Shown here: one piece after another, positions 1 through 45,403 of the stretch | Position numbering within the stretch: the stretch's first letter is position 1 | Layout of the letters: each line of letters starts with the position of its first letter | Origin: Cyanophora paradoxa CCMP329 | Lineage: Eukaryota > Plantae > Glaucophyta | NCBI GenBank assembly: GCA_004431415.1 | Contig: QPMI01000520.1 | Location: 492,025-556,024, forward strand | Direction: 5' to 3' | DNA: 64,000 nucleotides | Made by a program: the position numbers and the translations under genes | The notes under the pieces: generated by a model | Database searches by the model: none | Told to the model about the DNA's origin: nothing | The model's input: the letters and a program-made list of their open reading frames with translations, nothing else

Positions 1-1998
1 CTCAATAAATTCGTATTGATCCGCATCACTGATCTGTTCTATCGCGACCCTCGTATGCTTTAACATCGCGTCCCACGATAGTCCCGGTGCGCTCACATAA
101 TGCGTGGGATCCAGACCGTATTGCTCATGTGCGAGCATACTGAATTTACCGAATTTTACCATGAGATCATTAACATCGGACGCCTGAAAATCCATGAAAT
201 TCGAGGCGTCTATAAACTTGTAAAGTCCCCACTGTAAAGAGAGATACTCGTCGAAATTCTTACTTAGGATCTCGACCCGCAGCTTATCGTCTTGCTGTGC
301 GATTTTCCTGAATATAGCATGCCCGCACTCGTCCATCCGATCAATGACCACGGCTACTTTCGTTTGCTTTGAGATCCTCCTGTGTAAATTGCATTTTCGG
401 CAAGCTTTCCCTATATAATCGCCGCTTTGGTGACAGTGATCGCGCACAGGGAAGTTTTCGTGGGTAAACCGCTGATTGCATATATAGCAGTGCTTGGTGA
501 TTTTATAGGCTTGCTTTTGCGCCTCTGTGAGCGGAATCATAGGTGTATTGGTAAATAGGGTATTAAGCATCTCGCGGCACAGTTCCCCTAACGTGGTAAA
601 CATCTGTCCCAGCGGATCCACGCCCTCGAATTCGTGATTTTCAACATGAGAGCCCATAACAACATTAAGTGCCACCGACTTTACCTCTCGCTTGGTTCGA
701 TTTGGTTCATTAGGAACCGGCACCGACTCCATCTCTACCTTGCAGTAGCAGACAGTAGGAAGCCACACCATTTTCCTTAGGTGTTGCAGTCCGAAAGTAA
801 TAAAGCTTCCGGGCTCCGGGCATTTACCTTTACTCAGCCGCCAATCGATACAGCGATTAGAGTCGGTGTGGCTATCGAGTTTCTCCTGTGATCTAAACCG
901 GGACAAACAGGTTTCGCAGTAGAAAATGCGCCCGTCGTTTGCTTTATCAAAGGTGGTCTTTAAGAGGCGGCTCAGTGACATTATCGTAATATAGTGACCC
1001 TGTCCGTTTGCGTCCTCGATCAGCAGCAGGTTTACCTTCGATTTACGACGCGGATTACTTGACATGTGCAGTGGATAAAAGGTTTGGGTCGCATTGTCGG
1101 CGCCATATATATTAATTGACAGCTCGGGATTATTGTCCTCGAAACGATCTATTAATGCAGCATCGCAAGCCACCGGGAAATTAATGCCTGAGAAGTCCAG
1201 CTCAGTCATCCACCGCCTATATTGGAACGGATCATTACGTTTGTGTCTGTTTATGTCGTTTCTGTGCAGCCATGCGAGGATAGCGTAATTAAAGCAGTCG
1301 TGACCATCGATATTCTTAATATTTACTGTGGCTCGCTTTAATCCAATCCATTCGGGGGTCTCAATGTAGCAACCGCCCATCGGCGCATATGACAAAACGG
1401 CGACATGTAGCTTATCTAATTTACTGAGCCGGTAGCTGTCAACCTGTATCATCTGTTCATTCATTTGCTGAGCTACACCCACTAACTCAGTGAGAATATT
1501 GCGCGACCTTGTGATTACGAAATAATCGCTGTATATGTGTTTGGTGATAAAAACGTTAGGATCACTCACTTTTACGTATCGGCAGATGAAAGTAAGTCGC
1601 ACCTTAATAGCTTTCAGTTCATCCAGCCTTTCTTTCAGCCGCCCAGGCAGATTTGCAGCGATGGTAGTGAGAAATTCCACCGGATCTAAGATTATCTGTT
1701 CATCCGCCTTATAGCTATACCAGGCGTATGCTTTATTCATTGCAAAACCGTCTTCCTCATCGGGTTCTATGACGGCTAAGCGCCGCCCTTCGGTATAGAA
1801 GCGCTCCACATTTTCCAGGCGATTGTAGAGCTCGTCGGCAATATTCGCAAGGTTAGCTAAGCGGGGTTTTCGATCTAAGATCGCCGCCCTCCGATCGTAT
1901 TCGGCTTCGGTGATCTCCCCAGTGACTAAAAGACTACCTAACAAGCCTAATATTTCGTCCTTTTTCTCTTTTATAAGGCGATTAGTTTGGCGGGGCAT
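1..1998 (-). CDS. Polinton-type (protein-primed family) DNA polymerase B, N-terminal 666 codons, partial
   Basis: Manual translation from ATG 1998 is open to base 1. Motifs: GGCYIETPEWIGLKRATVNIKNIDGHDCFNYAILAWLH; FYCETCLSRF; EndoVII-like CYIC..VRDHCHQSGDYIGKACRKCN; FIDASNFM; YGLDPTHYVSAPGLSWDAMLK. Absent from the ORF track because its stop lies outside the window. Confidence 0.9.
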   Translation of the reverse strand, partial: MPRQTNRLIKEKKDEILGLLGSLLVTGEITEAEYDRRAAILDRKPRLANLANIADELYNRLENVERFYTEGRRLAVIEPDEEDGFAMNKAYAWYSYKADEQIILDPVEFLTTIAANLPGRLKERLDELKAIKVRLTFICRYVKVSDPNVFITKHIYSDYFVITRSRNILTELVGVAQQMNEQMIQVDSYRLSKLDKLHVAVLSYAPMGGCYIETPEWIGLKRATVNIKNIDGHDCFNYAILAWLHRNDINRHKRNDPFQYRRWMTELDFSGINFPVACDAALIDRFEDNNPELSINIYGADNATQTFYPLHMSSNPRRKSKVNLLLIEDANGQGHYITIMSLSRLLKTTFDKANDGRIFYCETCLSRFRSQEKLDSHTDSNRCIDWRLSKGKCPEPGSFITFGLQHLRKMVWLPTVCYCKVEMESVPVPNEPNRTKREVKSVALNVVMGSHVENHEFEGVDPLGQMFTTLGELCREMLNTLFTNTPMIPLTEAQKQAYKITKHCYICNQRFTHENFPVRDHCHQSGDYIGKACRKCNLHRRISKQTKVAVVIDRMDECGHAIFRKIAQQDDKLRVEILSKNFDEYLSLQWGLYKFIDASNFMDFQASDVNDLMVKFGKFSMLAHEQYGLDPTHYVSAPGLSWDAMLKHTRVAIEQISDADQYEFIE

Positions 1999-2128
1999 CT
2001 TTTACTCTAAGGGAACATTTTAATTTCGGGAAAGGACGCGTTCAAAAAATGTGGAAACATATTTAAGGACATCTCAAAAAATGACACGGAGGAAAACATT
2101 TTATGTGTATCAGATATAGAGAAACACA

Positions 2129-2623
2129 ATGAATACCCAAGAGATAATAGAATATTGTAAGACACTTACAAATATTCCCGTAACAGAAGCAACAAAAGAA
2201 TGCACAGACAAGAACTATCTCAAATGGGAAAAGAAGAATGCCCGTAAGAAGGTAATCTTTGTTATATCACAAACGCGTAAACATCAGGACATGTTTTTAC
2301 ATCTTAATATGGCTTCCCAGTTTTACCATCCTCGTAGGCAGCACATATGCGCATTGGTTTACAAAGGATATAAAATGTTAATACCACTTGACATTACGAA
2401 AGAGAAATGCATTGAGGTAATACAAAATGTTATATCGGGCTTTTCTAAAAAACAAGATGGGGAAGTTAAGTGTGTGATTTGTTTAGAGGTTATAGAAACG
2501 GAAGATTTAGCTTGTGTGCAGTGCAATAGTTCTGTGTGTGAATCTTGTATATCCGAAATGACTTATAAACAACGTTTTTCCTGTCCAGTTTGTCGTATTG
2601 AGAGTTTGCAACAATACCATTAA
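2129..2623 (+). CDS. RING-finger protein (putative E3 ligase)
   Basis: C-terminal CVIC-x9-CVQC-x4-CESC-x11-CPVCR; intact 164-aa ORF. Confidence 0.75.
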   Translation: MNTQEIIEYCKTLTNIPVTEATKECTDKNYLKWEKKNARKKVIFVISQTRKHQDMFLHLNMASQFYHPRRQHICALVYKGYKMLIPLDITKEKCIEVIQNVISGFSKKQDGEVKCVICLEVIETEDLACVQCNSSVCESCISEMTYKQRFSCPVCRIESLQQYH

Positions 2624-2633
2624 TTGCAAGTGC

Positions 2634-2870
2634 CTAAGTTAGCTTTGTGACACTTCTTACCGTTAGTCTTACGTTTTCGGGCAGCTCTATTGTCAGTTGC
2701 ATAGTGTCAGATTTGATAACATGGGTTTTTGTCTTTTTACCACGGCAATTCGGGTAGTAACCGAATATTCGCCTGAAAAGATCCTGTGTGGCTTCAATAT
2801 CCATGGTCGCGGTTTGAGTGATCTCGTCCGCAGTCAGGGCGTGCGTATAGGTAGGTCTGATAGCGGTCAT
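2634..2870 (-). CDS. Hypothetical viral protein
   Basis: Short ORF from ATG 2870 (MTAIRPTY...), convergent with and tightly packed against the RING gene. Confidence 0.4.
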   Translation of the reverse strand: MTAIRPTYTHALTADEITQTATMDIEATQDLFRRIFGYYPNCRGKKTKTHVIKSDTMQLTIELPENVRLTVRSVTKLT

Positions 2871-2954
2871 TGTGTTGTCAGTATATACAATCAAAGGAAG
2901 GCTTATATACCTTAATCATATTTTGAGAATGGCACGATATACAGTATACAAAAT

Positions 2955-3225
2955 AATAAACTACTTAATTAATATAATAAACTACATGAAACTACTTGAC
3001 TTTCCTTGCAAAACTACGCAACTTGAAACCAAAACTACGCACTTAATACCAAAACTACGCAACTACGCAACTTTTGCGCTTTTCAGAATTTTTGCCGCCC
3101 CGACCTTCAAACCTTTTGCAGAAAGTTGCGTAGTTGCGTAGTTTTGGTATTAAATGCGTAGTTTCCAGTATTAAATTGCGTAGCTTCGCTATGTAGTTGC
3201 GTAGTTACTAAAAAATGATGTAGTT
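2955..3225. repeat. Iteron palindrome, copy 1 (AACTACGC / GCGTAGTT)
   Basis: Perfect 31-bp inverted repeat TAATACCAAAACTACGCAACTACGCAACTTT (~3044-3074) / 3122-3152 around a ~48-bp spacer, with extra AACTAC units to the left and GTAGTT units to the right. Confidence 0.92.
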
Positions 3226-3245
3226 ATTAATTGTTTCCGTGTCGC

Positions 3246-5660
3246 TTATGCTTCAATATCGTCCTCATCTTCGTCTTCGAACTGTGTCTTGGCGATCTTA
3301 GTGAGCCCCTTATAAACTCGCTTCGACTTCCCTTTAATTGTAGTCACAGTCGATTCAATCTTGAATGTTTCGAGCACTTTGTTACTGATAGTGCGAGTGG
3401 TAACCTTTGTCTTGATATCGTAGCTTCGCATCATTTCCGCGCAAGCTTTGAATACCTCATCGCAGGCAACATGGGCGCCCTTCTCATCTGATGGTTTGTA
3501 GTTTTCGCGCAGATAGGAACCCAGCTTATCGCTGTCGTCGAGGTATTTGGCGCTATGCTCGATGACAGATTGCGGCGGGTTTTGCAGGATCTCTTTAACT
3601 TTGCCAGTAGCGAGCATATCGATGAGAATCTGAATATTTGCCCGCTTGTATTCATTTTTCTCGTCGCCCTCAAACATTTCCATGAGGGTTTCGTCCGCTT
3701 TCTTCTCTCCGGCTTTGGGATTAGGTGAGTAAACAGAGCGGAATGGGATCGATCGGAACCGACGCTTAATAGCTTTGTCGGGCTTTTCGATTTCCAGATT
3801 ATTGTTGCACAGGATCACCATAGTAAACCGAGGCTTGAAATCAATAGGATCCTTGAAAAGTCCTCGGGCTGTGCAGAGCTCGCCACCTGTCAGTGTCTTC
3901 ATCATACCGCATAGAAGCTTGTCGCCATCATTAGGTTCGTTTGCATGGGTGAGCCGGACACCTTGCTTATTAGCAAGCTCGGGAATCGGGCTATTTGCTT
4001 TGTGGACTTGTGTGAGCAAAGTAATGCTAATCGGGCGACCATAATCGCCGAATGTCTCTTGCATAAACGTTTCAATCACACTCTTTCCATTAGCACCGAC
4101 GCCTGTGAACAGATAGAACGTTTGCAGGTCGGTTTTACCTGTGAGTGCATATGCATAGAGGCTGATCAGGTAATTGTAGAGTTCCATATCTCCGCCACAG
4201 ATATCCAAATAAATGTCTTTCAGTCTTTTAACCTTCTCCTGATCCACTTCCTCGCTATAATCAAAGCCGACAGTCTTGCTCACCATATCTTCCATCGTCC
4301 CCTTGCGGAAAGTCATATTATTTAGATCAAACACGCCATTGGTAAACCCCACAATATTGGGAACTGTGTCCAGAGTCGCCATAAAGTCATCGTCTTGCAG
4401 CTGTGTGATAATATGCGGTTCCAGCGACTTTTGATACGGTGTATTCTGAATCCTCTTGTGAATTGCCAGCAACATGTTGGCGCTCTTCTCAGCTTTTTCC
4501 TTCACAAGATCATCTCCACTTGCCCTGAGAGCATTGGAAAGATGATAGCCCGCCCTCTTAGAGAACCACTGTGCCACATGCTCGGGGATCTTAGAAAGTA
4601 ACGACTTCTCCGTTTTATCATATTTCCAGATACCATTTTTGGGGTTAAGGTTAAACCAGACCTTATTTGAATATTTCGTGGTCGCTTTCAGGATCTTGGC
4701 GCAGATAATTGCAACAGGATAATGGGCACCTTCAACTGAAACGGTCTTGTCAATGAGAGTATTAATTTCTAAATGGTGCTTCTCTTCCTCAGTCAGCTCT
4801 ATGTTAACAGAGAACTCTTTCGGCTCGCAGTTCTCGCTATAACTTTTCACAATATACTCATTATAATTGCCATCTCGCTTTTTCTTCACCCACCAGTTAT
4901 TGGAATCGTGGGATTCATCGCAGCAGGGACACAGGAACCCCTTGTTAGCCGAATTAAAGTCAAAGCCCTCATCGCGGCGTGCATAGATGTTTGGGAATAG
5001 GAACCCCATGCCACACAGTCCGGCAATAATAGCGGCTTCGGTATTATCCTTGCTCGAATTTCCCGCTTTCGGCTGTGGATTATTGGCATGCTTGTAATCG
5101 TAGTTCTCGATAATCCATTTACGGAAAGCGTCAGAGGGCTCATTGAACTTGCACGACGGTGCCCACGGCTTAATTACCCAGGTCTTGTTAGGGCTCGGGC
5201 ATACATTGAGAAGTCCCGCAGTGCCAGTGCCAGTGATGGTTTTGAGGTCGACCTTCTTGTATCCCTTAAAAGCCGGCGCGCTATCTGTGATTTTCAGCTT
5301 ATCAAACTCATCAGGGCGTCGAAAGAATACATGGTAGCCCTTTCGAGTCTTTTCGAGCGGCTGATGGGCATCGAAATCACCGGGAAACATCTCAACGAAT
5401 TTCTGATACGTTTCCTCATCGTCGAAATCAACGACCATCATCGAATTCGACAGCAGAATGCCCCAATTAGTGAACTCGTTGGAAGCAAAGGCTTCGTCGT
5501 ATCTTCCCCAGTTCCAAACACCGCCTTTATGGGTGTAGGCGGGCTTTTTAACCTCGTCTTTCATGGGAATAATCGTGTTTTTCGACAAGGTCTCATCGCC
5601 ACGCAGCCAATCAGCGAGCTCTTGGAGTAAAGTCTTTTGTTTCAACGTCATCTTCGCCAT
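3246..5660 (-). CDS. Primase-polymerase (prim-pol/AEP) fused to D5-like SF3 helicase
   Basis: N-terminal WGILL..MMVVDFDD and KTRKGYHVFF (prim-pol); CPCC..H Zn-binding segment; IVGFTNGVFDL (D5 N-terminal); Walker A GVGANGKS; Walker B-like HANEP; KTLTGGE..ARGLF; motif C ILCNN. Confidence 0.93.
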   Translation of the reverse strand: MAKMTLKQKTLLQELADWLRGDETLSKNTIIPMKDEVKKPAYTHKGGVWNWGRYDEAFASNEFTNWGILLSNSMMVVDFDDEETYQKFVEMFPGDFDAHQPLEKTRKGYHVFFRRPDEFDKLKITDSAPAFKGYKKVDLKTITGTGTAGLLNVCPSPNKTWVIKPWAPSCKFNEPSDAFRKWIIENYDYKHANNPQPKAGNSSKDNTEAAIIAGLCGMGFLFPNIYARRDEGFDFNSANKGFLCPCCDESHDSNNWWVKKKRDGNYNEYIVKSYSENCEPKEFSVNIELTEEEKHHLEINTLIDKTVSVEGAHYPVAIICAKILKATTKYSNKVWFNLNPKNGIWKYDKTEKSLLSKIPEHVAQWFSKRAGYHLSNALRASGDDLVKEKAEKSANMLLAIHKRIQNTPYQKSLEPHIITQLQDDDFMATLDTVPNIVGFTNGVFDLNNMTFRKGTMEDMVSKTVGFDYSEEVDQEKVKRLKDIYLDICGGDMELYNYLISLYAYALTGKTDLQTFYLFTGVGANGKSVIETFMQETFGDYGRPISITLLTQVHKANSPIPELANKQGVRLTHANEPNDGDKLLCGMMKTLTGGELCTARGLFKDPIDFKPRFTMVILCNNNLEIEKPDKAIKRRFRSIPFRSVYSPNPKAGEKKADETLMEMFEGDEKNEYKRANIQILIDMLATGKVKEILQNPPQSVIEHSAKYLDDSDKLGSYLRENYKPSDEKGAHVACDEVFKACAEMMRSYDIKTKVTTRTISNKVLETFKIESTVTTIKGKSKRVYKGLTKIAKTQFEDEDEDDIEA

Positions 5661-5842
5661 TTTCGATGTCTTTCTACCTTAATGCAAGAAATTAATTTTT
5701 CTTAGGCTGATCAAATTTTGGCGAGTTGTCTTTAAATGCCCTACAAATTTTTTCCCGATGACTAAAACCGATTAGGGAGCTTGCCGATATGCATCGGAAA
5801 GCCGCTTGAAAAATAAGGAATGGATTCAGCGGCGGATTGCGT

Positions 5843-6064
5843 TTAATACTTGCGGGGTCGCCCGCGGTTTCCACTATGGATGCCCTCTTCTTGCTTGCGA
5901 CGGTAGTAATATTCTAGCGCCTTTTTCTTTTTTAATTCGCGATATTCGGGATCGTCGTTATAGCGCATCCGCTGTTTATATATATCCCTGACACGCCAGC
6001 CCGCCTTATCGAGATCTACCGGGTTCCCGTTCTTATCATACACAGTCATAGCATGCGTCTCCAT
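5843..6064 (-). CDS. Small basic putative DNA-binding protein
   Basis: 73 aa, K/R-rich, ends in AT-hook-like RGRPRKY; upstream TTTCTCAG motif. Confidence 0.6.
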   Translation of the reverse strand: METHAMTVYDKNGNPVDLDKAGWRVRDIYKQRMRYNDDPEYRELKKKKALEYYYRRKQEEGIHSGNRGRPRKY

Positions 6065-6280
6065 TGGTTTACCTTACTTTAAGCTGAGAAAATATTTTTA
6101 TCAGTGGTCTTTGCTATTTCTTCTTTAAATCATTTTCTGAGCTGTCATTTTTGTGACCGAAGCGAGCTCTTCTCTACGTTTTTTAATAGCGGCTTCCAGT
6201 GCATTTTGCGCGCGTTTCCTGTATAGGATCGCGTAGAGATCAGGGTCGGGCATTCGATACTATTTACCGCGAAAATTGTT

Positions 6281-6628
6281 TCAGCGATCGTATTCGCCCA
6301 AATAAAGCGGATTAATTGGCGGATATGGCGAATCAACGCGAATATGACCTTCTACGAAATTAGGGCACGACCGGCGTCTTATATAGGATACTTGCACGTC
6401 TTCTATTGCTACCTGTGGGATTATATTGGAGTCAGCGGGCACAGGCGAGGGCGATCGAGATCGGGGACGATCGTGATTATCGCTGTGGTTGGAATATACA
6501 GATAATCGCCTTCCTCCATTATCCTCGTCCGAAATGTCAACCTCTACGGTTGTGTCGCAGCAGGAGTTGTGGCACGTGCTTGTGAAATGCAGGTGAAACA
6601 TCTCAATGCATTGCGTGATGAAATTCAT
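6281..6628 (-). CDS. Hypothetical viral protein
   Basis: 115-aa ATG-started ORF with Cys/His-rich start and RSRSPSP segment; no recognised domain. Confidence 0.4.
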   Translation of the reverse strand: MNFITQCIEMFHLHFTSTCHNSCCDTTVEVDISDEDNGGRRLSVYSNHSDNHDRPRSRSPSPVPADSNIIPQVAIEDVQVSYIRRRSCPNFVEGHIRVDSPYPPINPLYLGEYDR

Positions 6629-6857
6629 AGATCCTAATATTGCACAACGTATTAAATATTGGAGAAAAGAAAAGGGAATGAGGGTGTTACTTGCTCGTGT
6701 GTTCCCATACGAATTAGTCGACCTTATAATGGTGTTTGTGGAGCCGACCTGTCCCTATTGCAAGGGAATTCATATTAAGACCCGCTCTAAATACGGGCGG
6801 ATTCATTTATGTTTGAACGACTTGCACATTAGAAGCGACGACGCCCACCAAACATAG
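6606..6857 (+). CDS. Small putative zinc-ribbon protein
   Basis: CPYCKG...HLC motif; real start may be ATG 6678; overlaps its neighbours slightly. Confidence 0.35.
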   Translation: MHCVMKFIDPNIAQRIKYWRKEKGMRVLLARVFPYELVDLIMVFVEPTCPYCKGIHIKTRSKYGRIHLCLNDLHIRSDDAHQT

Positions 6858-7500
6858 ATGACAGATTGGCACCCGGCTGTGCATGCACACCCGATGGGTT
6901 AACGAAACCGCCCGGCTTTGGTGCATTTTCAGCTATGACTGTCTCTTTTTTCTCGACTGTCTGAATATCGGGAACAGTTGCCCGCTTCTTTTCCATTTCC
7001 ACTCGAACAGCCTGTTTAATCAGCTTGCGCTGTTTGTAGTCCTTGGTAAAATCATCAAAGGCTCTCACAGTAGTGTCGTAGGTAGCCAGTCGCGCTTCCA
7101 GCACCCTAAACTTCTCCTCTAATTCCTGACCGACTTTCTCGCCCTTGGTCACATAGACAGATGCCCGCTTTTTAGGGGCTTCCATCGATGCAGGTAAAGC
7201 GGCTGTTGCTTCGGCTTTTACCACCTTATTATCGGTTAGCTTTTCGCCTGTGAGCTGTGATTCGGCGAGGGATTGATCCGCCAGCTTTCTATCAGTGGAA
7301 TCGACCGGCTCCCGCTTAGCATCCGCCTTTTGAGCACGCTCTGAAACCTTTGTATTCGGGTCAATCAGATCGAAATCTATTTGGTCAGAAGCGGCAGCAC
7401 CGCCAGTGCGACCAGCATCCTCCGCAGGATTAATCTTGCCAGCGACAACAGCGCTTTGATCTTCCATTTGGATCGCTTTCCGCGAGTTCTTGGGTGGCAT
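6829..7500 (-). CDS. Hypothetical virion/core protein with coiled coil
   Basis: Intact 223-aa ORF directly downstream of the ATPase; charged, helical middle; ends MFGGRRRF. Confidence 0.65.
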   Translation of the reverse strand: MPPKNSRKAIQMEDQSAVVAGKINPAEDAGRTGGAAASDQIDFDLIDPNTKVSERAQKADAKREPVDSTDRKLADQSLAESQLTGEKLTDNKVVKAEATAALPASMEAPKKRASVYVTKGEKVGQELEEKFRVLEARLATYDTTVRAFDDFTKDYKQRKLIKQAVRVEMEKKRATVPDIQTVEKKETVIAENAPKPGGFVNPSGVHAQPGANLSSMFGGRRRF

Positions 7501-7523
7501 TTATCATTATGCGAGAAATTTAT

Positions 7524-8435
7524 TCAAAATTTACCCAATTTCTTTGCAAATTTTGGGCGGCGCTTTTCTTGGTATGCCAGCAATAGATTGGGGTCTTTAA
7601 GTAGGTCGGCTTCTATTATTCTTTTGGTGGATCGCTTTAAAGTGGCGACGTTTCCACTCACAGGTTTCGTAATATCGGTGGTTTGGGGTTGGTCGCCATT
7701 TACCGCGCCCGACGTCGGTTTTACCGGCTGTTTACCAGCGGTCTTTATGTCGTCCGCCGCTTTTTTAAAGAAGCGCTTGAATTTATATTCGTCGGGCACC
7801 GGATCAGCCTTGCCAACAGAGAATTCCAGGCTATATTTCGCATTGTTTACCACGATCACCTGATAGCTGTGACTGTATTCGGTCATCACCTTCTCGAACC
7901 ACCGCTTTTCGTATGGATTAAACTCGTCCTCGGCGCTCTCCATCTCCTTTCTATTCGGCAATGAGAACAGGAATATATATTCGGCGTTTACTCTGAGTGT
8001 CGGCGAGATCTTCGTGAGTTTCTGTGACAGAATCCAGACGCTCACAAACAGATGGCGTCCAGCAGTGAAAAGACGATTTAATATAGGCTCACCCTTTCCT
8101 GACATCGATAGACTCGGATTATCAATAAAATCGTCCAGCACAATTAACAGGTTACCGACTTTCTCATTTTTCTTGATCCTCTCCTTGCGTTTCTCTATTA
8201 TATTGTCGATCAGCTTATGGTCGAAATCCTCATACAGATACGATGTGACATTATCATATTGATGATTCCAGATCGTGGAGGCGAATATCATCACCGAATC
8301 TATCTTGTCCTCGTTGTGGTAAAGCAGGTATTTCAAAAACACTGACTTCCCAGTTGCTGTTTTGCCCACAAAAACGGCGCGATTCGGAAATTCCAGGCTT
8401 CCCGGGTCAAACTCACTCAGATCTTGTATATCCAT
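7524..8435 (-). CDS. A32/FtsK-HerA family genome-packaging ATPase
   Basis: Walker A VGKTATGKS, Walker B LLIVLDD, arginine-finger GRH, ILSQ and LRVNAEYIFLF. ATG at 8435 preferred over the track's 8483. Confidence 0.93.
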   Translation of the reverse strand: MDIQDLSEFDPGSLEFPNRAVFVGKTATGKSVFLKYLLYHNEDKIDSVMIFASTIWNHQYDNVTSYLYEDFDHKLIDNIIEKRKERIKKNEKVGNLLIVLDDFIDNPSLSMSGKGEPILNRLFTAGRHLFVSVWILSQKLTKISPTLRVNAEYIFLFSLPNRKEMESAEDEFNPYEKRWFEKVMTEYSHSYQVIVVNNAKYSLEFSVGKADPVPDEYKFKRFFKKAADDIKTAGKQPVKPTSGAVNGDQPQTTDITKPVSGNVATLKRSTKRIIEADLLKDPNLLLAYQEKRRPKFAKKLGKF

Positions 8436-8486
8436 TTCCCTTATAAGAAACATATAAAAATTACGAAACGCGACAGCCCTCATTCC

Positions 8487-9935: not shown

Positions 9936-9968
9936 ATTTCGTTTTTATCTTCCGCTGAGAAATTTATT

Positions 9969-11247: not shown

Positions 11248-11274
11248 TTTATTCTTTATTAATAGGAAATAAAA

Positions 11275-12234
11275 ATGATTCGGAAGCCAGTTAACGATTT
11301 CTATAATGGCAAGTTTACGAGGGTCAATGTTAATATCGATTCTATTGAGCGCAGTGCAGGGCACCCGGGAGAATATACAGTAAAGCTTTCTCAGCGACTT
11401 CTGAACGTAAAAGGGGTGCGCATTGCGAGCGCCGAGCTCCCAAACACGATTTATGCTGTCACCGATAATTCCAGAGGCGTGACCATACAGGGAATGACAA
11501 CAGCATCACCTTTTCCCCTTTCCCTGAATAGGAACTACACCCAGCGATTTGGGGATATGGTAATAAGAACTTAGGCTATTCGGGCGGTTTTATGATTTAA
11601 CCCTCTAAAGAAAGCGTCACAGTCTACTACAAGTGGCTCTATAATCCAGCGACTATGAAAATTACGTTTTATTCGAGCATTCCCTCACACTGAGCTGTGC
11701 ACATGACGACTTCGCAAGGTTCCATGGAATGATCAAAGGGGATATTATCAAACAATTCCAGTTGGTGAGGGTTCAGAGCATCTCACGGTAGACTATTTAC
11801 CCCTCACACCCAGCAATCCAAAATACTCATTTCTACAAGCCTATGAGGGCAAAACAAAATACCCCGCCGGAATATCTGTGCTTCCATTCCCTCTCGAACA
11901 TGCAGTGACCTTCCCAAATGCGATTAATCTAAATCCGACCCCCTATGTTTACCTACAAATTAAAGAGTTTACTCCCTTTTACGACAGTATATGGTAGCAG
12001 CAAAGACAGATGAGGGCGGAAATGCAACCTCGCTAAGATCCACTAACCAGCCCCTTGGGATCGTTTGTTTACTACCTGACATTCCGCAGAATCGATACTG
12101 TGGAGTTCTTTAATTCCCACGATCAGGCTTATGATATAGACACCCTCACAATTAAATGGCTCGATGCCTACAATAATGTAGTCGACTTTAATGGCGTTAA
12201 TCACAGCTTTATATTAGAGGTGCTATCGGGTTAA
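11275..12234 (+). pseudogene. Minor capsid protein (penton-like) 2, frameshifted as assembled
   Basis: N-term VNIDSIERS..YTVKLSQRLLNVKGVRIASAELPNTIY; C-term IDTLTIKWLDAYNNVVDFNGVNHSFILEV; stop 12232-12234. Middle interrupted by indels. Confidence 0.78.
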
Positions 12235-14728
12235 AATAATCTTATATTACAAATGAGTATCACGAATCTCCCCTTTATCACTCGGGAAACCTTGTATTTG
12301 GATGACGGTTTCGAGCTCAGCAGTAACATTACCGCTTCCAATGTGACCATATCTTCGAACCTTGTGGTAAAAGACTTTCTATTAAATCAGAGCAACCTTG
12401 AATATATTGATATCACCAGCAATCTCCCTTTTACCTATGGCACTGATAACTCAGCCCTCGTTATCTATCATGGGGGCTCACCTGTTGCATTCTTTGGCAG
12501 CAATTTCCCCACTGTGCGAACCTTCCAGCACGAAATCAATAAAGCCCGCCCCATCCCACTGACAGCTGTCGTCGAATGGGATCCTGTTGAATATTCGCAG
12601 AGCATCACAAGCAATATCACCCTCACTCGACCGCATTTAATTGATGTCATGGGGGTCGACCTTGTAAAGGAGTTTTATAGTGAGCGATTCACCAGAAATG
12701 AGCGAGATGCAGCCCAGGATCTCGAAATCTCGGGTTTATCAATTGCTACCGCAGCAAACACGGCAGGGCTCGCTGTTTTAACAGGGCTATCACCATCACT
12801 GATGCGATCATGTATTTATCCCGCGATTTGGTGCCTTTGCTCGATCATCAGTTTAATCTCGGGCAATCTAACACTGATGCTGTTAAGAAATGGCTCAATG
12901 TGTATGCCTATGATGGGTGGTTTGATGACTTGCACACGACTAACCTTTATAGCACGACCTCAAAAACAAGTAACATAATCTTGCCTTTCAATCACTCAGT
13001 CCGACCCAGTGATTTACCCACTGATGAGAGAGCTCTGATCAGCTATAACGACTTTAACAGCAATCTTTCCCGCTCAGTTTCGCGGACTGAGACCTACACT
13101 GTCGAGGGATACCCTCAGCAGCTCGCAAATGGGGTCTTTGTCGCTTATGTAGGCAAACCTACATATACATTCACTTGGGATCAGTTGGGTGTCACAGGTT
13201 TCGAGACGACTATACCCACTGTTTCATTGGTGGATCACACTACTTATTATAATCCTATCTATAACAATAATGAATCGAATAAAGCATTTATCCAAAATGT
13301 CACCTCCACAGGGTTTCAGGTTTCGTTTGTCATTAACGAGACATACAATTTACTTATCATCCGAAACAACTCATTGAGTTCCGAAGCTACTATTAGTTTC
13401 ACTCTTAACATCAATTACATTAGCCCTGTATTCGATAGCAAACCCAGAGTAAAGGTTTACCGAGATTTACAAGGTAGCAATATCGTGCCCTTCTCACAGA
13501 ATTTCGATCTTGGGGCGAATTCTTTAAGGTGGAACACAGTTTACTCTTTGAGTGCAAACACCTGTAATATTGTGGTCGCAGGATCATCGGCTACTATTGG
13601 AGAATGACCGCCCCTTTTAGAAAGGAGTTTCTCAGAGAACTGTATATAACAAGTCTGATTTACCAGATGCTATTTCGTTGGTGCTCTCCCCAACTCCCAG
13701 CATCTCATACACAATGTGAAAGACACAGTAATGTAGTGCGGAGTGGAAGCAAAGTATTCCAGGCATCCGAGATATCAGCAACAACATATAGATATCTTGC
13801 AGGGTTCCAGCGAATTTTAATTTCACATTTGAGACACCATTTGTTTCCCCTCCTACTATTGAAATAACAGACACGAATTTGTATGTGTCAATGATGGGTC
13901 AGCTACTCACTTCAAAATGCACCAGCCGGCTACTCCCCATTTGTTGCAACTAACATAACAACCACCGGCTTTACACTTGTAGGAAATGCAACAGTGACAT
14001 ATGCTCTGACATCATACCTGTTGGGTTGTATTTTTCGAAATTTAATCTCTCTGTTATCCCAGCAGTGTCCCTTGCTCCTCCCTTTACTATCAGTTGGAAG
14101 GCAACAGGAACTATTCCGCGATTTGACCCCGAAGATCGATTAAAATAAGGTATCCTCTCGATGTTACAGACATTCACACTACGAGATCAATGGGCAGAAT
14201 TTCGTGTTTAATGGAACCAATGCGACTTTGATCGATAATAGAGTCACAAATAATTACTTTTTCGATTCTCGATATATTAATACTTGCAACATTGTCATAC
14301 AGAAAACGTTTGAGATCGCAGTAAGACCTTAACAGTCACCTTGCCCACTCACTCGAATGTCTCAGATGGATTTCACTATTATCTTTTCAATCGTAATTAC
14401 ACCTCATATATTCCATATCCTTCTGAGACTGTCAACATGAGCTATCCCAGAGTCACCCTAACATCGACCAATGCTGACTTCTTTGGATCCACGGACTTTA
14501 TGACCTTCTTTGCTTTCACATCGTCCACAGATGGTCTCTTAGTTTATTACACTTTCAGATATGATGCTGTTTGGACTCAGCTTGACAGCCACCCAAATAC
14601 AGATGTAATCGAAGTGGGCGATAAGAAATATATTAAAACCGCTTCCCCATGGGTGTGCACTGTCCGGCTCGATGATAGATACACTCCCAACCTAAATAGC
14701 ATCGGAATGCACTCGACTTGCAATATTT

Positions 14729-15562
14729 ATGTGCAAGGTGCAATTTCGGCTACCAAATATTTCGAGGGTGGAAACTGTGATGCAGCCCACAGGTTACTAT
14801 CGAGAAATGGATTCTTTGAGTCATTCAGTGGGACGCTCTACCTCCTTTATTAGGGACACAGTCTATGATACACATGCAATATTTGGGTGTGCGATCTGTG
14901 AGCAATCCGCCTGTAACAAGGAATTATATAAATATCTGTCAGATACCTATGGTGCAATCTCAGGATCCTCCACAGGAAATCCAGCGACGGCTCCCATCGT
15001 GTTTGCAAATGCATACACAGCGCCGACATCATTAGCAGGGTCGACAGAGCCGCCACCAAACGATCCCAATCCGAACCAGCCTAACCCAGATCCCGATTCA
15101 AAAGATCCCCCTACAACTGATCCAGATCCAAACACACCACCTAATAATCCCACAAATCCTACTAATCCAGTCGGAGCACCGGGAACTGATCCAGGAACGT
15201 TAGTGCTTATGATTCTCTTGCCTATTCTTGGTGCTCTTGGGCTTGTGCTTGCATACAAATTCCGAGCTTTGTGTTGTGCTTGCTTAGATAGAACCATTGC
15301 AGGAGCAGGTAATAAATACTCAACACCAGAGCTTAATGTGACCCAAACAGCCGAAGGAGATGTGGGCTTAGAGGTGAGATCAGCCGAGGGGCATGGTCTT
15401 AGTGTTGTGAGGACTGACCGACCACCAGCAAATAGGGCAGCACCCAAAAAATCACGAGCACAAGAATTGGCAGAGCAAACGATGAACAATGATAGAGACT
15501 TTATGGCGGAAATGGCACAGCGAGAAGGGAGAATATATGAACATGTTCCAAACGTTATGTAA
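14729..15562 (+). CDS. Pro/Asn-rich single-pass membrane protein segment within the fibre region
   Basis: PNDPNPNQPNPDPD linker, hydrophobic LVLMILLPILGALGLVLAY, then KFRALCCAC and a charged tail. Confidence 0.55.
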   Translation: MCKVQFRLPNISRVETVMQPTGYYREMDSLSHSVGRSTSFIRDTVYDTHAIFGCAICEQSACNKELYKYLSDTYGAISGSSTGNPATAPIVFANAYTAPTSLAGSTEPPPNDPNPNQPNPDPDSKDPPTTDPDPNTPPNNPTNPTNPVGAPGTDPGTLVLMILLPILGALGLVLAYKFRALCCACLDRTIAGAGNKYSTPELNVTQTAEGDVGLEVRSAEGHGLSVVRTDRPPANRAAPKKSRAQELAEQTMNNDRDFMAEMAQREGRIYEHVPNVM

Positions 15563-16042
15563 CAACCTTAATTTTTGTAGTATTCCATAATAGAGTATAA
15601 TGACTGAACCCATAGTAGAAACGACAATAAAGAATGCGGTATTGGATAATAATTTTATATAACCCATGCCAATATACCCAGTGAATCCAATGACCTGATA
15701 GTAGATCTAAAAGGTATGTGATGGGAGCTATGGCTTCCAATCTGTGGAATGACATTTTTGGTTACGAGTTTGGTCACATATATGACATAGCAAATGGGAT
15801 TGGCTATGTGGATGCAATGGCAGGAACAGCCTTTCGAAATCTTAATTGCAACTGTGTGGGAGGGTGGATGTTTCAGATCTGTTCAAATGTCGATCCTACT
15901 ATTGATCCAGCTACTGTGACCTTTGATTGCAATCTATTCGCCCCTAAAACCATTTTCTCCATCACTTGCAACCTTGTATGTTCAGATGTGCCCATTGTAG
16001 CACCTGTAATAGGTGCATCAAATATGTATATCCAAAGAAATC

Positions 16043-18505
16043 CGGTCGTGCATACAGGAGCTGAATTTATATTGGGCGACAACACCCCAATTAGTCGAAT
16101 CGAACTACCCAATTCTCACAAGCATTTGTGGGAACATATCACCAATGCCCCATTTACCTATCCGCCCAGTTCTCACGAGCATTTGTGGGAGCATATCACC
16201 AATCGACCATTAACCTTCCCACCTGATCCACACACTCATGATTATTTGTCTCTCAAAGGTGGTGTTATTTCATCTAATCTTACAATTTCATCAAACCTTA
16301 CAGTTACAAGTAACATTTATGCCAGTAACATTTATGCCAGTAACATTTATGGCAGTAACCTATGGGCAAGTAATATTAATGGAAGTAATGTAATAGTCGA
16401 TTATCTCACTGTGAAGATTGAAGCAAACCTACCAAATCATCCGACATCGAATGTTGTTTTAGATTGGTTAGCAAAGCAAAAACACACAAAAGCAGATATT
16501 ACAGATTTTGCACACACTCACACAAAAGATCAAATAACAGATTTCGCCCACACTCATTTATGGGAGCATATCACGAATCCGCCATCGACCTTCCCACCTG
16601 GAAAACACACATGATTACTCAGAGATAACTAATAGTAACCACAGGCACCCATGGGAGGAAATAGATGAGAACCACGTTTTGCATCGACAGGTGATTTAGT
16701 AAATGGTGACGATTTTATGGGTTAGTTTCTATCAGAGTGACACCATTCCTGAAAGATTACATTAAGTGAATACTATTTACACCGAAAAGGAATTGAAGCA
16801 GGCACACAATGGAGGAGAGCTATATGTTAAACAACCCACAAGAACAACATTAGTAGCAGCTGGTGGCGATGCATTAATAGACACCAACAGTATATTTTTA
16901 ACAAGTTATATAATGCGGATATCCAGTTACAGCAGGTTTACCACGCTTCATCTGATCAGCAACTTATGATGACAAGACGCCATTTACAAGTGAATGTAAC
17001 AGATGTAAGCGCAACGATGGTTCACGTCCGAAAATTATATTTAGTCGCTCGAAATTCAATTACATCCACTTGTGGGACAACCATACGATGATCACGGAAA
17101 ATGCGAGATGGCGTGGATTAAAACAACAACAGGTGGCGCCTTAGAAGTCAATCAGAGAATGGCGGCTAAAAACTTACACAATACAACCCTTTCAGGTGTG
17201 GTAACAGATGATTACCTCGAAAGTAAAAACTATGTAGACGATACAGAACTTGCAGCAATTCTTGAAGATTATGTACAGATACAGAATTAACGTCGGCTCT
17301 TGGGATTATTTACCCTTACAGGCGGGACTCTCACAGGTGATGTGCATGCTCCGAATTTCTATGTGGACACTCCAAATGATCAAACATTTCCTGTTGTCCA
17401 CCTTGGTGCTGAATATGTTTTAGATCCAAACACCCCATTTAGTCGTCTTGAATTACCCAATGTTCACAAGCATTTTTGGGAGCATATTGTCAATCCCCCA
17501 TCGACCTATCCACCTGATTCACACGATCATGATTATTTACCACTAACAGGTGGAACAATTGCAGGTGATGTGCATGCTTCTAATTTCTTTGTTACTACTC
17601 CGAATGATCAAACATTTCCTGTTGTCCACCTTGGTGCTGAATATGTATTAGATCCAAACACTCCAATTAGTCGCATTGAATTACCCAATGTTCACAATGT
17701 TCGACCATTAACCTTCCCACCTGATCCACACACTCACACAAAGTCAGAGATTACAGATTTTTCACACACTCACACAAAGTCAGAAATAACAGATTTTGCC
17801 CATACCCACACAAAGTCTCAAATTACAGACTTCCCGACATTTGCGACTGTGGCAACAACTGGAAACTATGATGATCTGATAAATACACCAACATACACTT
17901 CACCAACTGATTTTGACGCTACAAGTGGTATTTCCACAGACCGCACAGGAGATTGGAGAGATTATTTTGGGCAACCACTTGTAGGTGACACAAGCACTTG
18001 GGCAAACACATGGATTGATGGTGATGATGATTGTAGTAGCTGTAAGATGTATTGGACTGTTCCAACAGACATGAAATCATGTTATATCTATTATACGTGT
18101 CAGTATGACAGTAGATACTTTGATGTTGTTGGAATTGAACCATCAAACAATACTTATACTCGTTTACGAGTAAATGCCTATGCTCCTGGAATTAATCCTG
18201 TAAGAGATTTTAAACAGTTTGTTGCAATAAATTGTGAAGGACTTGTTAAAGTTGGTGTTCATGGACAAATAGGAAGAATTTATCTTCCAGGTCCGATTAC
18301 TGTTGGTTGGAGCAAAAACCCGCTATATCGTCACACAGTGGTTTCCTCCATTGGAATAATATATACGGGAAGCCAACAGCTTCTACGACTGTCGGTCCTC
18401 ACTCTCATTTTAAAGCAGATATCACAGATTTCGCACATAGTCACACAAAGGCAAATATAACAGACTTCGCCCATACTCACACAAAATCGGAAATCACGGA
18501 TTTCC
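16043..18505 (+). repeat. Coding repeats in the fibre gene
   Basis: Three copies of PVVH.GAE..L..NTP.SR.ELPN.H (~16043, ~17390, ~17618; the last two 228 bp apart) and 33-bp HTHTKS.ITDF tandem units at ~16480, ~17727 and ~18404. Confidence 0.85.
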
Positions 18506-19103
18506 AACCTTAGACCCATTTGTAGCGAACACGATCACAGCAATAATACCATGTATGTGGGATCCGGTCAAATTTACCAACCAGATGCACCACTTTATTT
18601 AGAACAATGGTTTTTCCACAATTCCGCAAATATATACGATAAAACGTTATTATGTCGGGGAAATGCTTACGCAAGAGCATATTATGCAATGGATGAAACA
18701 GATAATACAAAGATCGCAAAACTTGTTTCAGAACAGCGTGTCAATAAAGACCAGTATATACAAACAGGGAAATTCTCAAAATCTTTGACAATCACAGGTC
18801 CGGGTCATTGGGGATTTCCACAGGTTGTCACATTCCCGAAAGCATTTGCGGAAGCCCCAGAAGTGGTTCTCAATCTGATACAAGGATATAATGGTGGTTC
18901 ATATGTATTGGTATATGGTGTCACAAGTTCCACAACAACAACATTTACTATTCATGCAACAATTTCGGCAAATAGAGAATACAATGAAAGCATTGGACTT
19001 TTCCACTATCAAATGAGTTATATAGCAACAGGGAAGATGGTAGCATAATATTCTCACGTAATAATAATAATATTCTCACGTAATAATAAAGAACAATCAA
19101 AAG

Positions 19104-20078
19104 ATGTCGACTGTGTTCACGCCTGTGTTTTCCTTATCAGCCAGTGCTGTCCATAACGTGCAACACACTGTATATGATCTAAACGAGTCATTTCCTTCGA
19201 CTGAGACAGCGAAAACCGATTCTTTCAATGAGACCTCCATACTCAGAGTCAAAGAACTCAGAGCCGACAAGGCTGGTGGAATCGTTAAAGCTACTCAAAT
19301 GATCGTATCGAATCGACCCGCAATATCTTCGGGGCTGGTCACCAAAGATAATCTATATGAAGGTCAAGCGGATTATAAAACAGCTTTTAATCCGGCTGAT
19401 AGGAAATCAGCGGCTTTTCAAGTAGTTAGTGGCGGGGCATGGATCGGGACTGGACTGAGTGTGAATGGAGCAATTACAGCAACAAGTGCAACAATTGGAT
19501 CCCTTACAGCTGGATCATTTGGGACTGTTAATACGACGACTATTGATTCGGGGGCGAACTCAGACTTACTCATTAAAAGGAATGGAACCACAATTGCTAC
19601 AATTGCTTCGAATGGTGTTTCACTACCTGCAAACATGTATTTGATCTCGCCAACAAATTGCAGATTCAGTGCATATGGCAATGGAAGCAATAAACACTTG
19701 CGAACACAACTTGGACATTTATTGACATATTCGGTGCTACATATGAGAATTATGAAACAATTTTAATACTACTACAAAAGCTTTGTTGCTCCTGTCACAG
19801 GAGTGTATATTTCAATATGACTTTTTGAAAGCATCAGGAAGCGCTGGATATATTACGGCGCACTATCAAAGAGCACGACAAACGCAACCATCCTTTATGA
19901 ATCATCGCGGTCTGGATATGATGGAAATAGTCTTGCTCTAAACAGCACGGTTTATGTAAAGGTCGATGCAAACACGACTGTCGCACCAGTGCTCTTTGTG
20001 AACTCTTCAAGTAGTTATACACTGAAAGGAACCGATTTTTATACAATATTCCAAGGAGCTTTACTTTATGCTGTATAG
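19104..20078 (+). pseudogene. Fibre protein with C-terminal C1q/TNF-like head, frameshifted as assembled
   Basis: After ORF 19104-19766, shifted frames give CRFSAY..., FNTTTKAFVAPVTGVY and terminal YTIFQGALLYAV* (TAG 20076-20078), which fit a C1q-like pattern. Confidence 0.65.
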
Positions 20079-20107
20079 ACTACAAAAAATATCTCACATA
20101 TAATTAA

Positions 20108-20368
20108 ATGGCGACTATAACTATTTCATTAACTTCAACAGAATTCAATGCTATGGAATATGCTGCTGTTTCGGCTCAGGAATGGACAGAAATTGCACTC
20201 AAAAACAAGGCGAGAATTGCGATTGATGAGATTGTGGACAAAGAAGTTAAATCGTGTATTGCCGCTGGAATTCCGCTTCCACTCACAAAGGAAGCGATTG
20301 TAGAGCAAGCGTTTGCAAGGGGGACTGTTCGAAAGGCAAGCGAAATTACTGTGAGTGCTCCTATGTAA
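20108..20368 (+). CDS. Small helical protein, possible fibre-associated chaperone
   Basis: Intact 86 aa (ITISLT.TEFNAMEYAA..QEW...NKARIAIDEIV). Resembles small proteins I recall next to C1q-type fibre genes in marine phages; not verified. Confidence 0.6.
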   Translation: MATITISLTSTEFNAMEYAAVSAQEWTEIALKNKARIAIDEIVDKEVKSCIAAGIPLPLTKEAIVEQAFARGTVRKASEITVSAPM

Positions 20369-20514
20369 AGAGAGAATGAGAGATGGGTTTATTGTAATTT
20401 TTCATAGATCATGCATAAGAAAGGCATGTATCTTGCATAGTGGGCGGGGCGCACTGTTTCACACTAAGGTCAATCGATTTTCATAGAGTCTCAGACTGAT
20501 AACAATAAGATAAA

Positions 20515-20787
20515 TAATAAACTACTTTATAATTAATAAAAACTACTTTAAACTACTCAACTACCTATGTTAAACTACGCAACTTAATACCGCAAACTAC
20601 GCATTTAATACCAAAACTACGCAACTACGCAAGTTTTTCACTTTTCTAATTTTTTTCCCCCCCTACTCTCAAATTTTTTCAGAAAGTTGCGTAGTTGCGT
20701 AGTTTTGGTATTAAATGTGTAGTTTTCGGTATTAAAAGCGATCAGATTGCGTAGTTTTCATGCGTAGTTACGTTAAATTGCGTAGTC
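20515..20787. repeat. Iteron palindrome, copy 2
   Basis: TTTAATACCAAAACTACGCAACTACGCAA...TTGCGTAGTTGCGTAGTTTTGGTATTAAA; same orientation and similar spacer to copy 1. Confidence 0.92.
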
Positions 20788-20949
20788 TCCGATTGCCCGC
20801 ATGCATTTAGGTGCGAGACTATTGTGTAGCCTATAAAACGGTCGTGTTTCAGTGCGAAACTATCGCGTAGCTTCCCTTTATAGCATGCCGGCGCTCTTTA
20901 AGTAGAGAAAGCATGGTATATATCATAGAATCATATTGATATTAATAAG

Positions 20950-21215
20950 AAACTACTTTATAATATATAAACTACTTGAAACTACTCAACTTACCATGAA
21001 AAACTACGCAATTCGAAACCAAAACTACGCAAACGAAACCAAAACTACGCAACTACGCAAGTTTTACACTTTTCTAAATTTTCCAGCCCCGAATTTCAAA
21101 CTTTTTCTGAAAGTTGCGTAGTTGCGTAGTTTTGGTATCTTTTCAGTAGTTCCCGGTATTAAATTGCGTAGTTTCTTTGAGTAGTTGCGATAAATTGCGT
21201 AGTTTCTGTGCGTAG
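20950..21215. repeat. Iteron palindrome, copy 3
   Basis: ACCAAAACTACGCAACTACGCAA...TTGCGTAGTTGCGTAGTTTTGGT; same orientation as copies 1 and 2. Confidence 0.92.
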
Positions 21216-21553
21216 CCGCTCGATCTCGATGCGAAACTCATACATTTACATGCGAAACTGATGCTCTCGATGCGCGCGAACGTTCCATGCAGCACATGGT
21301 AGTTGTTTTTGATGAAACGGCGCGTGATCGTCGCTTTTGCATTAAAAATTCAGAACAACACACATATACAACGCCCGGCTTTTAGACTGAGGCAAGTTAT
21401 AATTAAACTAAGTTGAGTCACACCTAAACTATAATGAATCTCACGAGATATATAAGTCTACTCATCGAGAATATAGCTAAACTTCACATAAACTATACAT
21501 ATTTCACATATTTTATTAAAAAGAAGCTATAACCCACGATAATGCGTAATATC

Positions 21554-21850
21554 ACACATAGAGAAAGCCCGCGTTTTATCATGAGGCGTGATATATTTTA
21601 ACTAAGTTTAAAATCCACCTCAAATACAAATGATTACGAGAGATAGAGGTAAAATACATCGGAGATACGAATAAATTAAATAACAGTAAGGGTTTGGATA
21701 GTAATTTATAGGAAATACGCACATAAAAGAAAAGAATAAAGGATAAAATACACATAAATATACGTAAAATATGCAATAAATATAGGTAAAATATAAACAA
21801 AATATAATTAAACTTAGCCGAGGGATAAAACGCGGGCTTTCTCTATGTGT
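21554..21850. repeat. Perfect 27-bp inverted repeat enclosing very AT-rich DNA at the virus/host junction
   Basis: ACACATAGAGAAAGCCCGCGTTTTATC at 21554-21580 and its reverse complement at 21824-21850. Confidence 0.9.
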
Positions 21851-45285: not shown

Positions 45286-45403
45286 TGCTGTCGAATCCGG
45301 AGTTTATAACGTGGGTCCTGATTTTCAGGGTACCCGGAGCGCACGGCGTCCTAAGGCAAAAACACGGAAGGCTAGACGGCTCCGTTTACAGGGCACAACT
45401 CAG

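What the first reader, a model, noticed from the sequence alone, without database searches (positions are those of the whole stretch)
1..21850. Endogenous Polinton-like virus with an unusual gene set
Seen: PolB plus a separate prim-pol/SF3 helicase, ATPase, MCP, two pentons and ~8 kb of fibre genes; core ORFs from 1 to 9935 are intact. Established: ATPase + DJR MCP + penton define the morphogenetic module of Preplasmiviricota. Inference: a recently integrated, possibly inducible virus from a divergent PLV lineage. It lacks the host's palindromic-insertion signature, which fits recent arrival.
Basis: partly seen in the sequence, partly recalled or inferred. Interest (0 to 1): 0.8.

Follow-up and report, generated by a model that had tools for sequence, protein, structure and literature searches.

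The report
Multicopy algal provirus, proofreading-dead polymerase
This is the right-hand 22 kb of a Polinton-like virus present in roughly 20 copies in what is likely the alga Cyanophora paradoxa; its DNA polymerase has lost the proofreading residues yet stays conserved, and sits beside a primase-helicase followed by a likely replication origin, a variant of a known kind of integrated virus.

Summary
The virus is real. ATPase, prim-pol/SF3 helicase, Polinton-type pPolB and a predicted double-jelly-roll capsid protein are present. The capsid's closest relative (41%) is a Cyanophora paradoxa protein already catalogued as a viral capsid, and pPolB plus primase-helicase in one element is in print, so the gene set is not new.

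It is not a single recent insertion. Contig depth in four public DNA runs gives about 18-27 capsid, 17-21 pPolB and 5-8 primase-helicase copies per single-copy flank. Copies differ mostly at third codon positions. The frameshifts in the penton and fibre half are likely assembly errors.

What I did not find described: the pPolB keeps its vOTU protease dyad but has lost the ExoI and ExoII acids and about 100 residues of the exonuclease region, yet is under purifying selection. That would be an independent case of the published 'exonuclease lost, helicase gained' pattern. An iteron palindrome follows the helicase gene and recurs twice at the end; this scan noted that layout before on other DNA of this genome. 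Integrase, left end, polymerase palm and inducibility are untested.

The parts
1..1998 (-). N-terminal 666 residues of a Polinton-type protein-primed DNA polymerase B: likely terminal-protein region, vOTU protease (C235, H335 kept), C2H2 finger, EndoVII-like zinc insertion, degenerate exonuclease (ExoI D to K, ExoII N and D lost, ExoIII Y to F, about 90-100 residues deleted near residue 603). Palm lies left of the window.
   Evidence: deletion bridged without gaps by contigs of two runs (records 9 and 25); 13 of 13 listed differences at third positions
2129..2623 (+). RING-finger protein; depth like the helicase (5-8.5 copies)
   Evidence: Pfam zf-RING_2 E 1.7e-6
2950..3215 (.). Iteron palindrome 1, directly after the helicase stop codon; likely origin
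   Evidence: 8 AACTACGC words, 4 per strand; hairpin z -11.2
3246..5660 (-). Prim-pol / zinc-binding / D5_N / SF3 helicase fusion (804 aa); about 5-8 copies of this allele
   Evidence: Pfam, PHROG primase E 3e-56, ASFV C962R E 1e-8; depth
6829..7500 (-). 223-aa protein upstream in the capsid gene run, no family match
7524..8483 (-). A32-type packaging ATPase
   Evidence: Pfam Pox_A32 E 6.4e-10; 70% to P0004
8487..9935 (-). Major capsid protein, predicted double jelly roll; about 18-27 copies
   Evidence: depth
10013..11247 (-). Penton-like gene 1, frameshifted in this assembly
   Evidence: one-base gap at 10393 filled in three of four runs
11275..12236 (+). Penton-like gene 2, frameshifted in this assembly
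   Evidence: DUF5901 E 0.008; gaps at 11498 and 11681 filled in all four runs
12253..15562 (+). Long frameshifted coding run, ending in a proline-rich linker and a strongly hydrophobic 19-residue segment (15197-15253); fibre identity not shown
15721..19048 (+). Phage-tail-like fibre gene(s): 12-residue PTR-type repeats, C-terminal H-lectin-like tip
   Evidence: PHROG tail protein E 1.6e-9; PTR E 0.004, H_lectin E 0.001
19104..20078 (+). Second fibre-like gene whose last 620 bases are nearly copy-specific (about 2 copies)
   Evidence: depth 1.6-2.2 times flank; PHROG E 7e-5 to an unnamed family
20510..20790 (.). Iteron palindrome 2
20940..21215 (.). Iteron palindrome 3
21554..21850 (.). 297-base terminal unit with perfect 27-base inverted arms and no flanking duplication; right end of the element
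   Evidence: multi-copy (11.9 times flank in X8); single-copy DNA starts beyond it

Best explanation
The element is one of about 20 related integrated copies of a Polinton-like virus, in what is likely Cyanophora paradoxa, that would replicate with a proofreading-dead, likely still active protein-primed polymerase working together with a primase-helicase that likely loads at the iteron palindromes. Shown: the gene set, the loss of exonuclease residues, selection on the polymerase, the multi-copy state, the palindromes and their places. Inferred by analogy with mavirus (exonuclease lost, separate SF3 helicase; 10.1101/2024.03.18.585575): the terminal-protein region primes at the genome ends and is released by the vOTU domain, the helicase opens the duplex at the palindromes and its primase adds internal starts, the ATPase fills a capsid built from the MCP and two pentons, and phage-like fibres with variable tips pick the receptor. 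The helicase slot and fibre tips vary among copies while polymerase and capsid are shared. Excision and reactivation, possibly on giant-virus infection, are inferred only from relatives.
For: Gene identities. All four reference pPolBs keep ExoI DxE, ExoII N..YD and the segment before ExoIII; the window protein does not, while vOTU C and H are kept. The deletion is bridged gap-free at 17-18.5 times flank depth in two runs. 36 of 42 listed core differences, 13 of 13 in pPolB, fall on third positions. Depth ratios agree in four runs of 2012, 2019 and 2024. 24 AACTACGC words against 1.7 expected, all in three blocks.
Against: The polymerase palm, integrase and left end lie outside the window. Only about a third of copies carry this helicase allele at 85% identity or more, so exonuclease loss and helicase presence are not shown to go together in every copy. 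No origin activity was tested. The tool warns that contig depth is no copy number. ExoI (733-747) is not covered by any of the 32 long contigs shown. Third-position counts use the best-supported rows only (63 assigned of 80 shown, of 965 in all).
Confidence: 0.55

Rival explanations
1. Replacement in progress: the pPolB survives only as a terminal-protein/vOTU scaffold with a dead palm, and the primase-helicase (or a non-homologous gene in the same slot in other copies) is the only replicase, starting at the iteron palindromes.
For: Exonuclease acids lost and about 100 residues deleted; palindromes at the end as well as behind the helicase; dual replicases read as transient replacement states in 10.64898/2026.07.28.741278.
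Against: Selection acts along all 666 visible codons, including the stretch running into the palm; the SWD.MLK block before the palm is intact; pPolB is in more copies than this helicase.
Confidence: 0.2
2. The RING-palindrome-helicase block is a passenger: a semi-autonomous replicase cassette that entered about a third of the copies of an otherwise pPolB-only virus, and exonuclease loss has nothing to do with it.
For: Depth falls from 17-21 (pPolB) to 5-8 (RING, helicase) and returns to 18-27 (MCP); repeat-bracketed second replicases are described in 10.64898/2026.10.13.758929.
Against: The same iteron word is built twice into the element's end, in bins that stay at high depth. Loose ends at 4256 read in frame as a diverged version of the same protein, so some missing copies likely hold distant alleles rather than nothing. 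No repeat brackets the block on its other side.
Confidence: 0.17
3. This copy is a decaying provirus: the frameshifts in pentons and fibres are real and only the core is still open.
For: Many frame breaks in 10-20 kb; contigs drop rare variants, so one copy's own indels could be hidden.
Against: All 12 indel rows shown are single bases missing from the window, 8 of 13 such sites (with 6147) beside the same base. In the near-unique stretch 19460-20238 three runs show six gaps and only 1-2 substitutions. 15 of 20 listed penton/fibre differences are at third positions. False frameshifts in multi-copy viral inserts are described in PMC10120064.
Confidence: 0.08

Closest known systems
Cyanophora paradoxa endogenous viruses catalogued by Bellas et al. 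2023 (PMC10120064; passages and supplementary rows read)
   Same: P0001, 41% identical to this MCP, is the Table S2 row 106 protein (HHpred to iridovirus MCP, probability 98.47); 366 MCP hits are listed for this alga in two 'iterative HMM' clusters (272 and 94).
   Different: The rows I saw give no gene-level description; I could not tell which cluster, if either, holds this 41%-identical MCP, nor whether this copy is among their loci. The supplement file was cut when stored.
Mavirus-like virophages (TP-vOTU-palm pPolB plus separate SF3 helicase; 10.1101/2024.03.18.585575, section 10 and passages read)
   Same: Exonuclease loss in the pPolB alongside a separately encoded SF3 helicase.
   Different: Here the pPolB is Polinton-type with the EndoVII insertion, the exonuclease region is still largely there but degenerate, the helicase is fused to a prim-pol, the capsid is not virophage-type by the searches run, and no Ulp1 protease was seen in the window.
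Dual-replicase polisuviruses (10.64898/2026.10.13.758929, parts 1-4 of 5 read; Halocafeteria virophages, 10.64898/2026.07.28.741278, passages read)
   Same: pPolB and AEP/D5 primase-helicase in one element; RING genes; palindromes at ends; one Cyanophora contig is among Barth's examples.
   Different: The passages read do not mention exonuclease status or a helicase-adjacent iteron block; Halocafeteria palindromes are 52-base terminal ones.
Polintons / adintoviruses (Polintoviricetes)
   Same: The nearest pPolBs found come from a spider protein record and three viral contigs, 22-28% identical, with the same vOTU, C2H2 and EndoVII layout.
   Different: Those keep all exonuclease motifs; the MCP here found no Polinton relative by sequence; integrase and protease not seen.
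PLV fibres with PTR and H-lectin domains (PMC12220804; passages and supplement rows read)
   Same: A PTR-PTR-H_lectin fibre is reported from one C. paradoxa PLV; the same domains occur at 17291-19045.
   Different: Copy-specific tip variation is not mentioned in what I read.

Membership tests
Polisuviricotina (Preplasmiviricota) | [quoted passage not shown] | tested here: met
   Low-confidence model, but best five solved matches all DJR; BFVD E 6e-8; Atlas 0.97-0.98 to clusters with Capsid_N on 10-85% of members, recognition score under the tool's bar; homolog assigned by HHpred in print
Polisuviricotina (Preplasmiviricota) | A32/FtsK packaging ATPase | tested here: met
   Pfam Pox_A32 E 6.4e-10, Walker A GKTATGKS
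Polisuviricotina (Preplasmiviricota) | [quoted passage not shown] | tested here: inconclusive
   DUF5901 E 0.008 only; two paralogs; Atlas uninformative; not folded
Polisuviricotina (Preplasmiviricota) | Genome of 15-40 kb with terminal inverted repeats and target-site duplication when integrated | not testable with these tools
   Left end outside the window, no genome held; 21.85 kb visible plus the rest of pPolB
Polintoviricetes (Polinton/Maverick) | pPolB with TP-vOTU-EXO-palm | tested here: inconclusive
   vOTU kept, exonuclease degenerate, palm outside window
Polintoviricetes (Polinton/Maverick) | Retrovirus-like integrase | not testable with these tools
   None in the ORFs scanned in 1-21850; could lie left of the window
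Polintoviricetes (Polinton/Maverick) | Ulp1/adenain maturation protease | tested here: inconclusive
   No Pfam match or crude motif in the visible part; unseen part untested
Polintoviricetes (Polinton/Maverick) | Maverick-Polinton-type MCP | tested here: inconclusive
   Only two sequence relatives among 1.84 billion representatives; Bellas Table S4 lists all 366 Cyanophora hits under 'iterative HMM' columns and none under named groups; no tree built
Aquintoviricetes (PLVs in the strict sense) | MCP groups with TsV/PgVV/Dino types | not tested
   No reference MCP set was available; no phylogeny
Virophaviricetes | Virophage-type MCP and protease | tested here: inconclusive
   No virophage MCP Pfam match; mavirus MCP at rank 36 in BFVD behind NCLDV-type capsids

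The most novel reading that the evidence does not exclude
A third, independent and still unfinished loss of proofreading in a protein-primed viral polymerase, caught while the exonuclease fold is eroding under selection, in a provirus family where a minority of copies carry the helicase and supply it in trans to siblings whose ends carry its origin: a helper system inside one integrated virus population of a culturable alga.
Probability: 0.22. Interest if true: 0.72.

Novelty: new variant of a known kind. Interest (0 to 1): 0.48.

Why it matters
Krupovic et al. proposed that preplasmiviricot polymerases trade their exonuclease for a helicase, from two end states (mavirus, Tlr1-type). This element looks like an intermediate: a Polinton-type polymerase whose exonuclease is dead but not yet gone, still under selection, beside an SF3 helicase. 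With about 20 copies in a cultured alga, the pairing, the candidate origin and reactivation can be tested directly. It also shows that 'decayed' structural genes in such assemblies can be artefacts.

Tried and rejected
Whole genome not held, so no look at the left end or sibling copies. MCP: no hit in the word-indexed protein search, viral contigs, metagenome contigs with a 3-sequence alignment or PDB sequences. ATPase: no related viral contig. AlphaFold of the pPolB part gave pLDDT 34.9 and was not used. ESM Atlas on the penton-2 fragment gave unrelated bacterial clusters. No RNA holder was listed for 7500-16000; this says nothing on expression. Iteron word searches: 1 of 1 viral-contig hit lies about 50 bases behind a VapE/DUF5906 helicase gene of a phage with words on both strands, but 0 of 3 metagenome hits had a helicase or palindrome nearby, so I treat it as a lead only. 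Adding one N at the 11 listed plus-strand gaps lengthened frames more than random sites in all but 45 of 2000 trials: weak support, since only 12 of 121 indel rows were shown, and singly 9 of 13 sites lengthened and 4 shortened or 5 counting ties is not claimed (observed: 8 longer, 5 shorter). The terminal 297-base unit as a freshly inserted host MITE: no flanking duplication and it travels with subterminal viral DNA in a multi-copy contig, so I read it as the virus end, without proof. A C1q-like look of the 19771-20078 tip is recalled from motif memory and got no Pfam or PHROG match. Literature searches for prior description of an exonuclease-dead Polinton-type pPolB with a separate AEP-SF3 and of iteron origins in PLVs returned none beyond the papers cited; the library lacks most subscription papers and bioRxiv supplements were not seen.
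Full report
Observation. Positions 1-21850 are 43% GC against 56% beyond. They hold open frames for a pPolB fragment (1-1998, running off the window), a RING protein, an 804-aa prim-pol/D5_N/SF3 helicase, an A32 ATPase and a 482-aa protein at 8487-9935. From 10 to 20 kb the coding run is split by many frame changes. Short palindromes are at or below expectation in the element and 2.6-4.8 times expectation in the next 16 kb.

Capsid. Sequence searches found two relatives among 1.84 billion representatives, at 41% and 37%. The first is a Cyanophora paradoxa protein and matches the 456-aa entry in Table S2 of PMC10120064 over the part shown, assigned there to iridovirus MCP by HHpred at 98.47; that supplement lists 366 MCP hits for this alga. 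My model from a 3-sequence alignment is poor (pLDDT 40.8). Its best five solved matches are all double-jelly-roll proteins at Z 8.7-7.6, near the level the tool calls common and with high rmsd for the full-length ones. BFVD gives 48 matches at E up to 0.001, mostly capsids where named. The lines together support the fold; none alone is strong. The host is therefore likely C. paradoxa; all 20 runs holding the stretch carry one organism code.

Copy number. I laid contigs of four of the 20 holding runs on 9400-24000 and 1-9990. Dividing single long contigs by the single-copy flank gives MCP 18.5-26.6, pPolB 16.8-20.7, primase-helicase 4.6-8.1, RING 5.2-8.5, the stretch 19460-20238 1.6-2.2 and the terminal unit 11.9. 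The agreement among runs of 2012, 2019 and 2024 fits stable integrated copies better than a free virus pool (inference). An ATPase allele differs at 50-51 of 378-429 bases, so the family holds distinct viruses.

Junction. In three runs a 4.4-kb single-copy contig begins at 21822-21831 and matches to 24000 with no difference. That is 20-29 element bases, under the tool's 31-base rule, so the junction is supported but not formally bridged. The end is a 297-base unit with perfect 27-base inverted arms and no flanking duplication.

Frameshifts. One search lists 121 indel rows (10% threshold, 12 shown) and one search lists 11 (25% threshold), so the two are not strictly comparable. All 12 shown are single bases missing from the window. 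Gaps occur in 16 of 26 element contigs shown, 0 of 6 flank contigs, and 3 of 32 contigs. In the near-unique stretch 19460-20238 three runs show six gaps with 1-2 substitutions. Listed substitutions fall on third positions in 15 of 20 penton/fibre cases and 36 of 42 core cases (67 of the 80 rows shown were used, 13 non-coding or frame-unclear rows left out, 4 fell in no frame, 1 in a small ORF). PMC10120064 describes false frameshifts in multi-copy viral inserts. I read the breaks as assembly error, though contigs can hide one copy's own indels.

Polymerase. Against four relatives (22-28% identical) the window protein keeps the vOTU cysteine and histidine, the C2H2 finger and the EndoVII-like insertion. 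All four references have the ExoI acid pair, the ExoII N..YD and a segment of about 90-100 residues before ExoIII. The window has K for the ExoI aspartate, lacks the ExoII residues, has F for the ExoIII tyrosine and lacks the segment. Contigs of two runs cross the deletion without gaps at 17-18.5 times flank depth, and a loose end at 353 reads as a second allele that also lacks the ExoII motif. All 13 listed differences in the gene are at third positions, 12 silent. So proofreading is predicted to be lost family-wide in a gene under selection. The palm is outside the window; contigs run on past base 1 but their letters were not given.

Palindromes. The word AACTACGC occurs 24 times against 1.7 expected, in three blocks of eight, four per strand: 2950-3215, just after the helicase stop, and 20510-21215 near the end. 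The blocks align at 82% mean column identity and the first folds at z -11.2. I read them as origins by position and form; nothing here tests that. Earlier notes of this scan report the same layout with other words in sister elements; I had formed the reading before seeing them and could not check their sequences.

Mechanism and rivals. Section 10 of 10.1101/2024.03.18.585575 says exonuclease loss goes with helicase gain, in mavirus (separate SF3) and Tlr1-type PLVs (fused SF1), independently. The element fits that pattern with a different polymerase type and the exonuclease region still partly present. I put 0.55 on an active, non-proofreading pPolB working with the helicase, 0.2 on a dead palm with the primase-helicase as sole replicase, 0.17 on a passenger cassette and 0.08 on real decay.

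What is known. Two replicases in one element, including pPolB with a D5 primase-helicase, are reported. Glaucophyte PLVs and a PTR/H-lectin fibre in this alga are reported, and adinto-like contigs in it were noted in 10.1101/697771 (one passage read). PMC12721341 and PMC13215967 (passages) describe other pPolB-helicase pairings. I did not find the exonuclease-dead Polinton-type state described in searches. Class membership is open: integrase, protease, left end and a capsid tree are missing.

Verdict. A real, multi-copy, probably functional-grade endogenous Polinton-like virus of a catalogued capsid family. Interest 0.48, new variant of a known kind.

Noticed in passing
window 14696-15562 (+): The frame ends in a proline/asparagine-rich linker and a 19-residue segment with mean hydropathy 2.64, like a membrane anchor; odd for a fibre, so the 12253-15562 product may be a membrane protein.
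   Followed up: partly
window 19460-20238: Depth drops to about 2 copies while both sides are at family depth: a swappable fibre tip or accessory gene.
   Followed up: partly
window 4256: Contigs of all four runs leave the window sequence here, between D5_N and the P-loop, and continue in what reads as a diverged in-frame allele: likely a recombination point inside the helicase gene.
   Followed up: partly
L001:9532-9675: A phage has the same iteron word in opposed orientation about 50 bases behind its VapE/SF3-type helicase gene.
   Followed up: partly
window 16483-16574, 17729-17844, 18406-18515: Contigs join between the 36-base repeat blocks of the fibre genes (joints), which may reflect repeat-number and module variation among copies or repeat collapse.
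   Followed up: no
window 37309-39801: A host-side element with long interrupted inverted arms about 1.9-2.4 kb apart, likely a DNA transposon.
   Followed up: no
window 31334-34039 (-): Duplicated exons encoding Ser-Pro repeats and a cysteine-rich segment in a spliced host gene with a predicted C-terminal membrane span near 29300-29400; no Pfam match.
   Followed up: no
window 44770-45303 and 48682-49620 (-): Two similar ORFs without Pfam match in a stretch with strong G and A skew and fewer palindromes; possibly another mobile region. An F-box-like ORF lies at 58568-58963 (E 2e-4).
   Followed up: no
window 21359-21414: A degenerate extra copy (77% over 56 bases) of the terminal unit's arm, just inside the end.
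   Followed up: no
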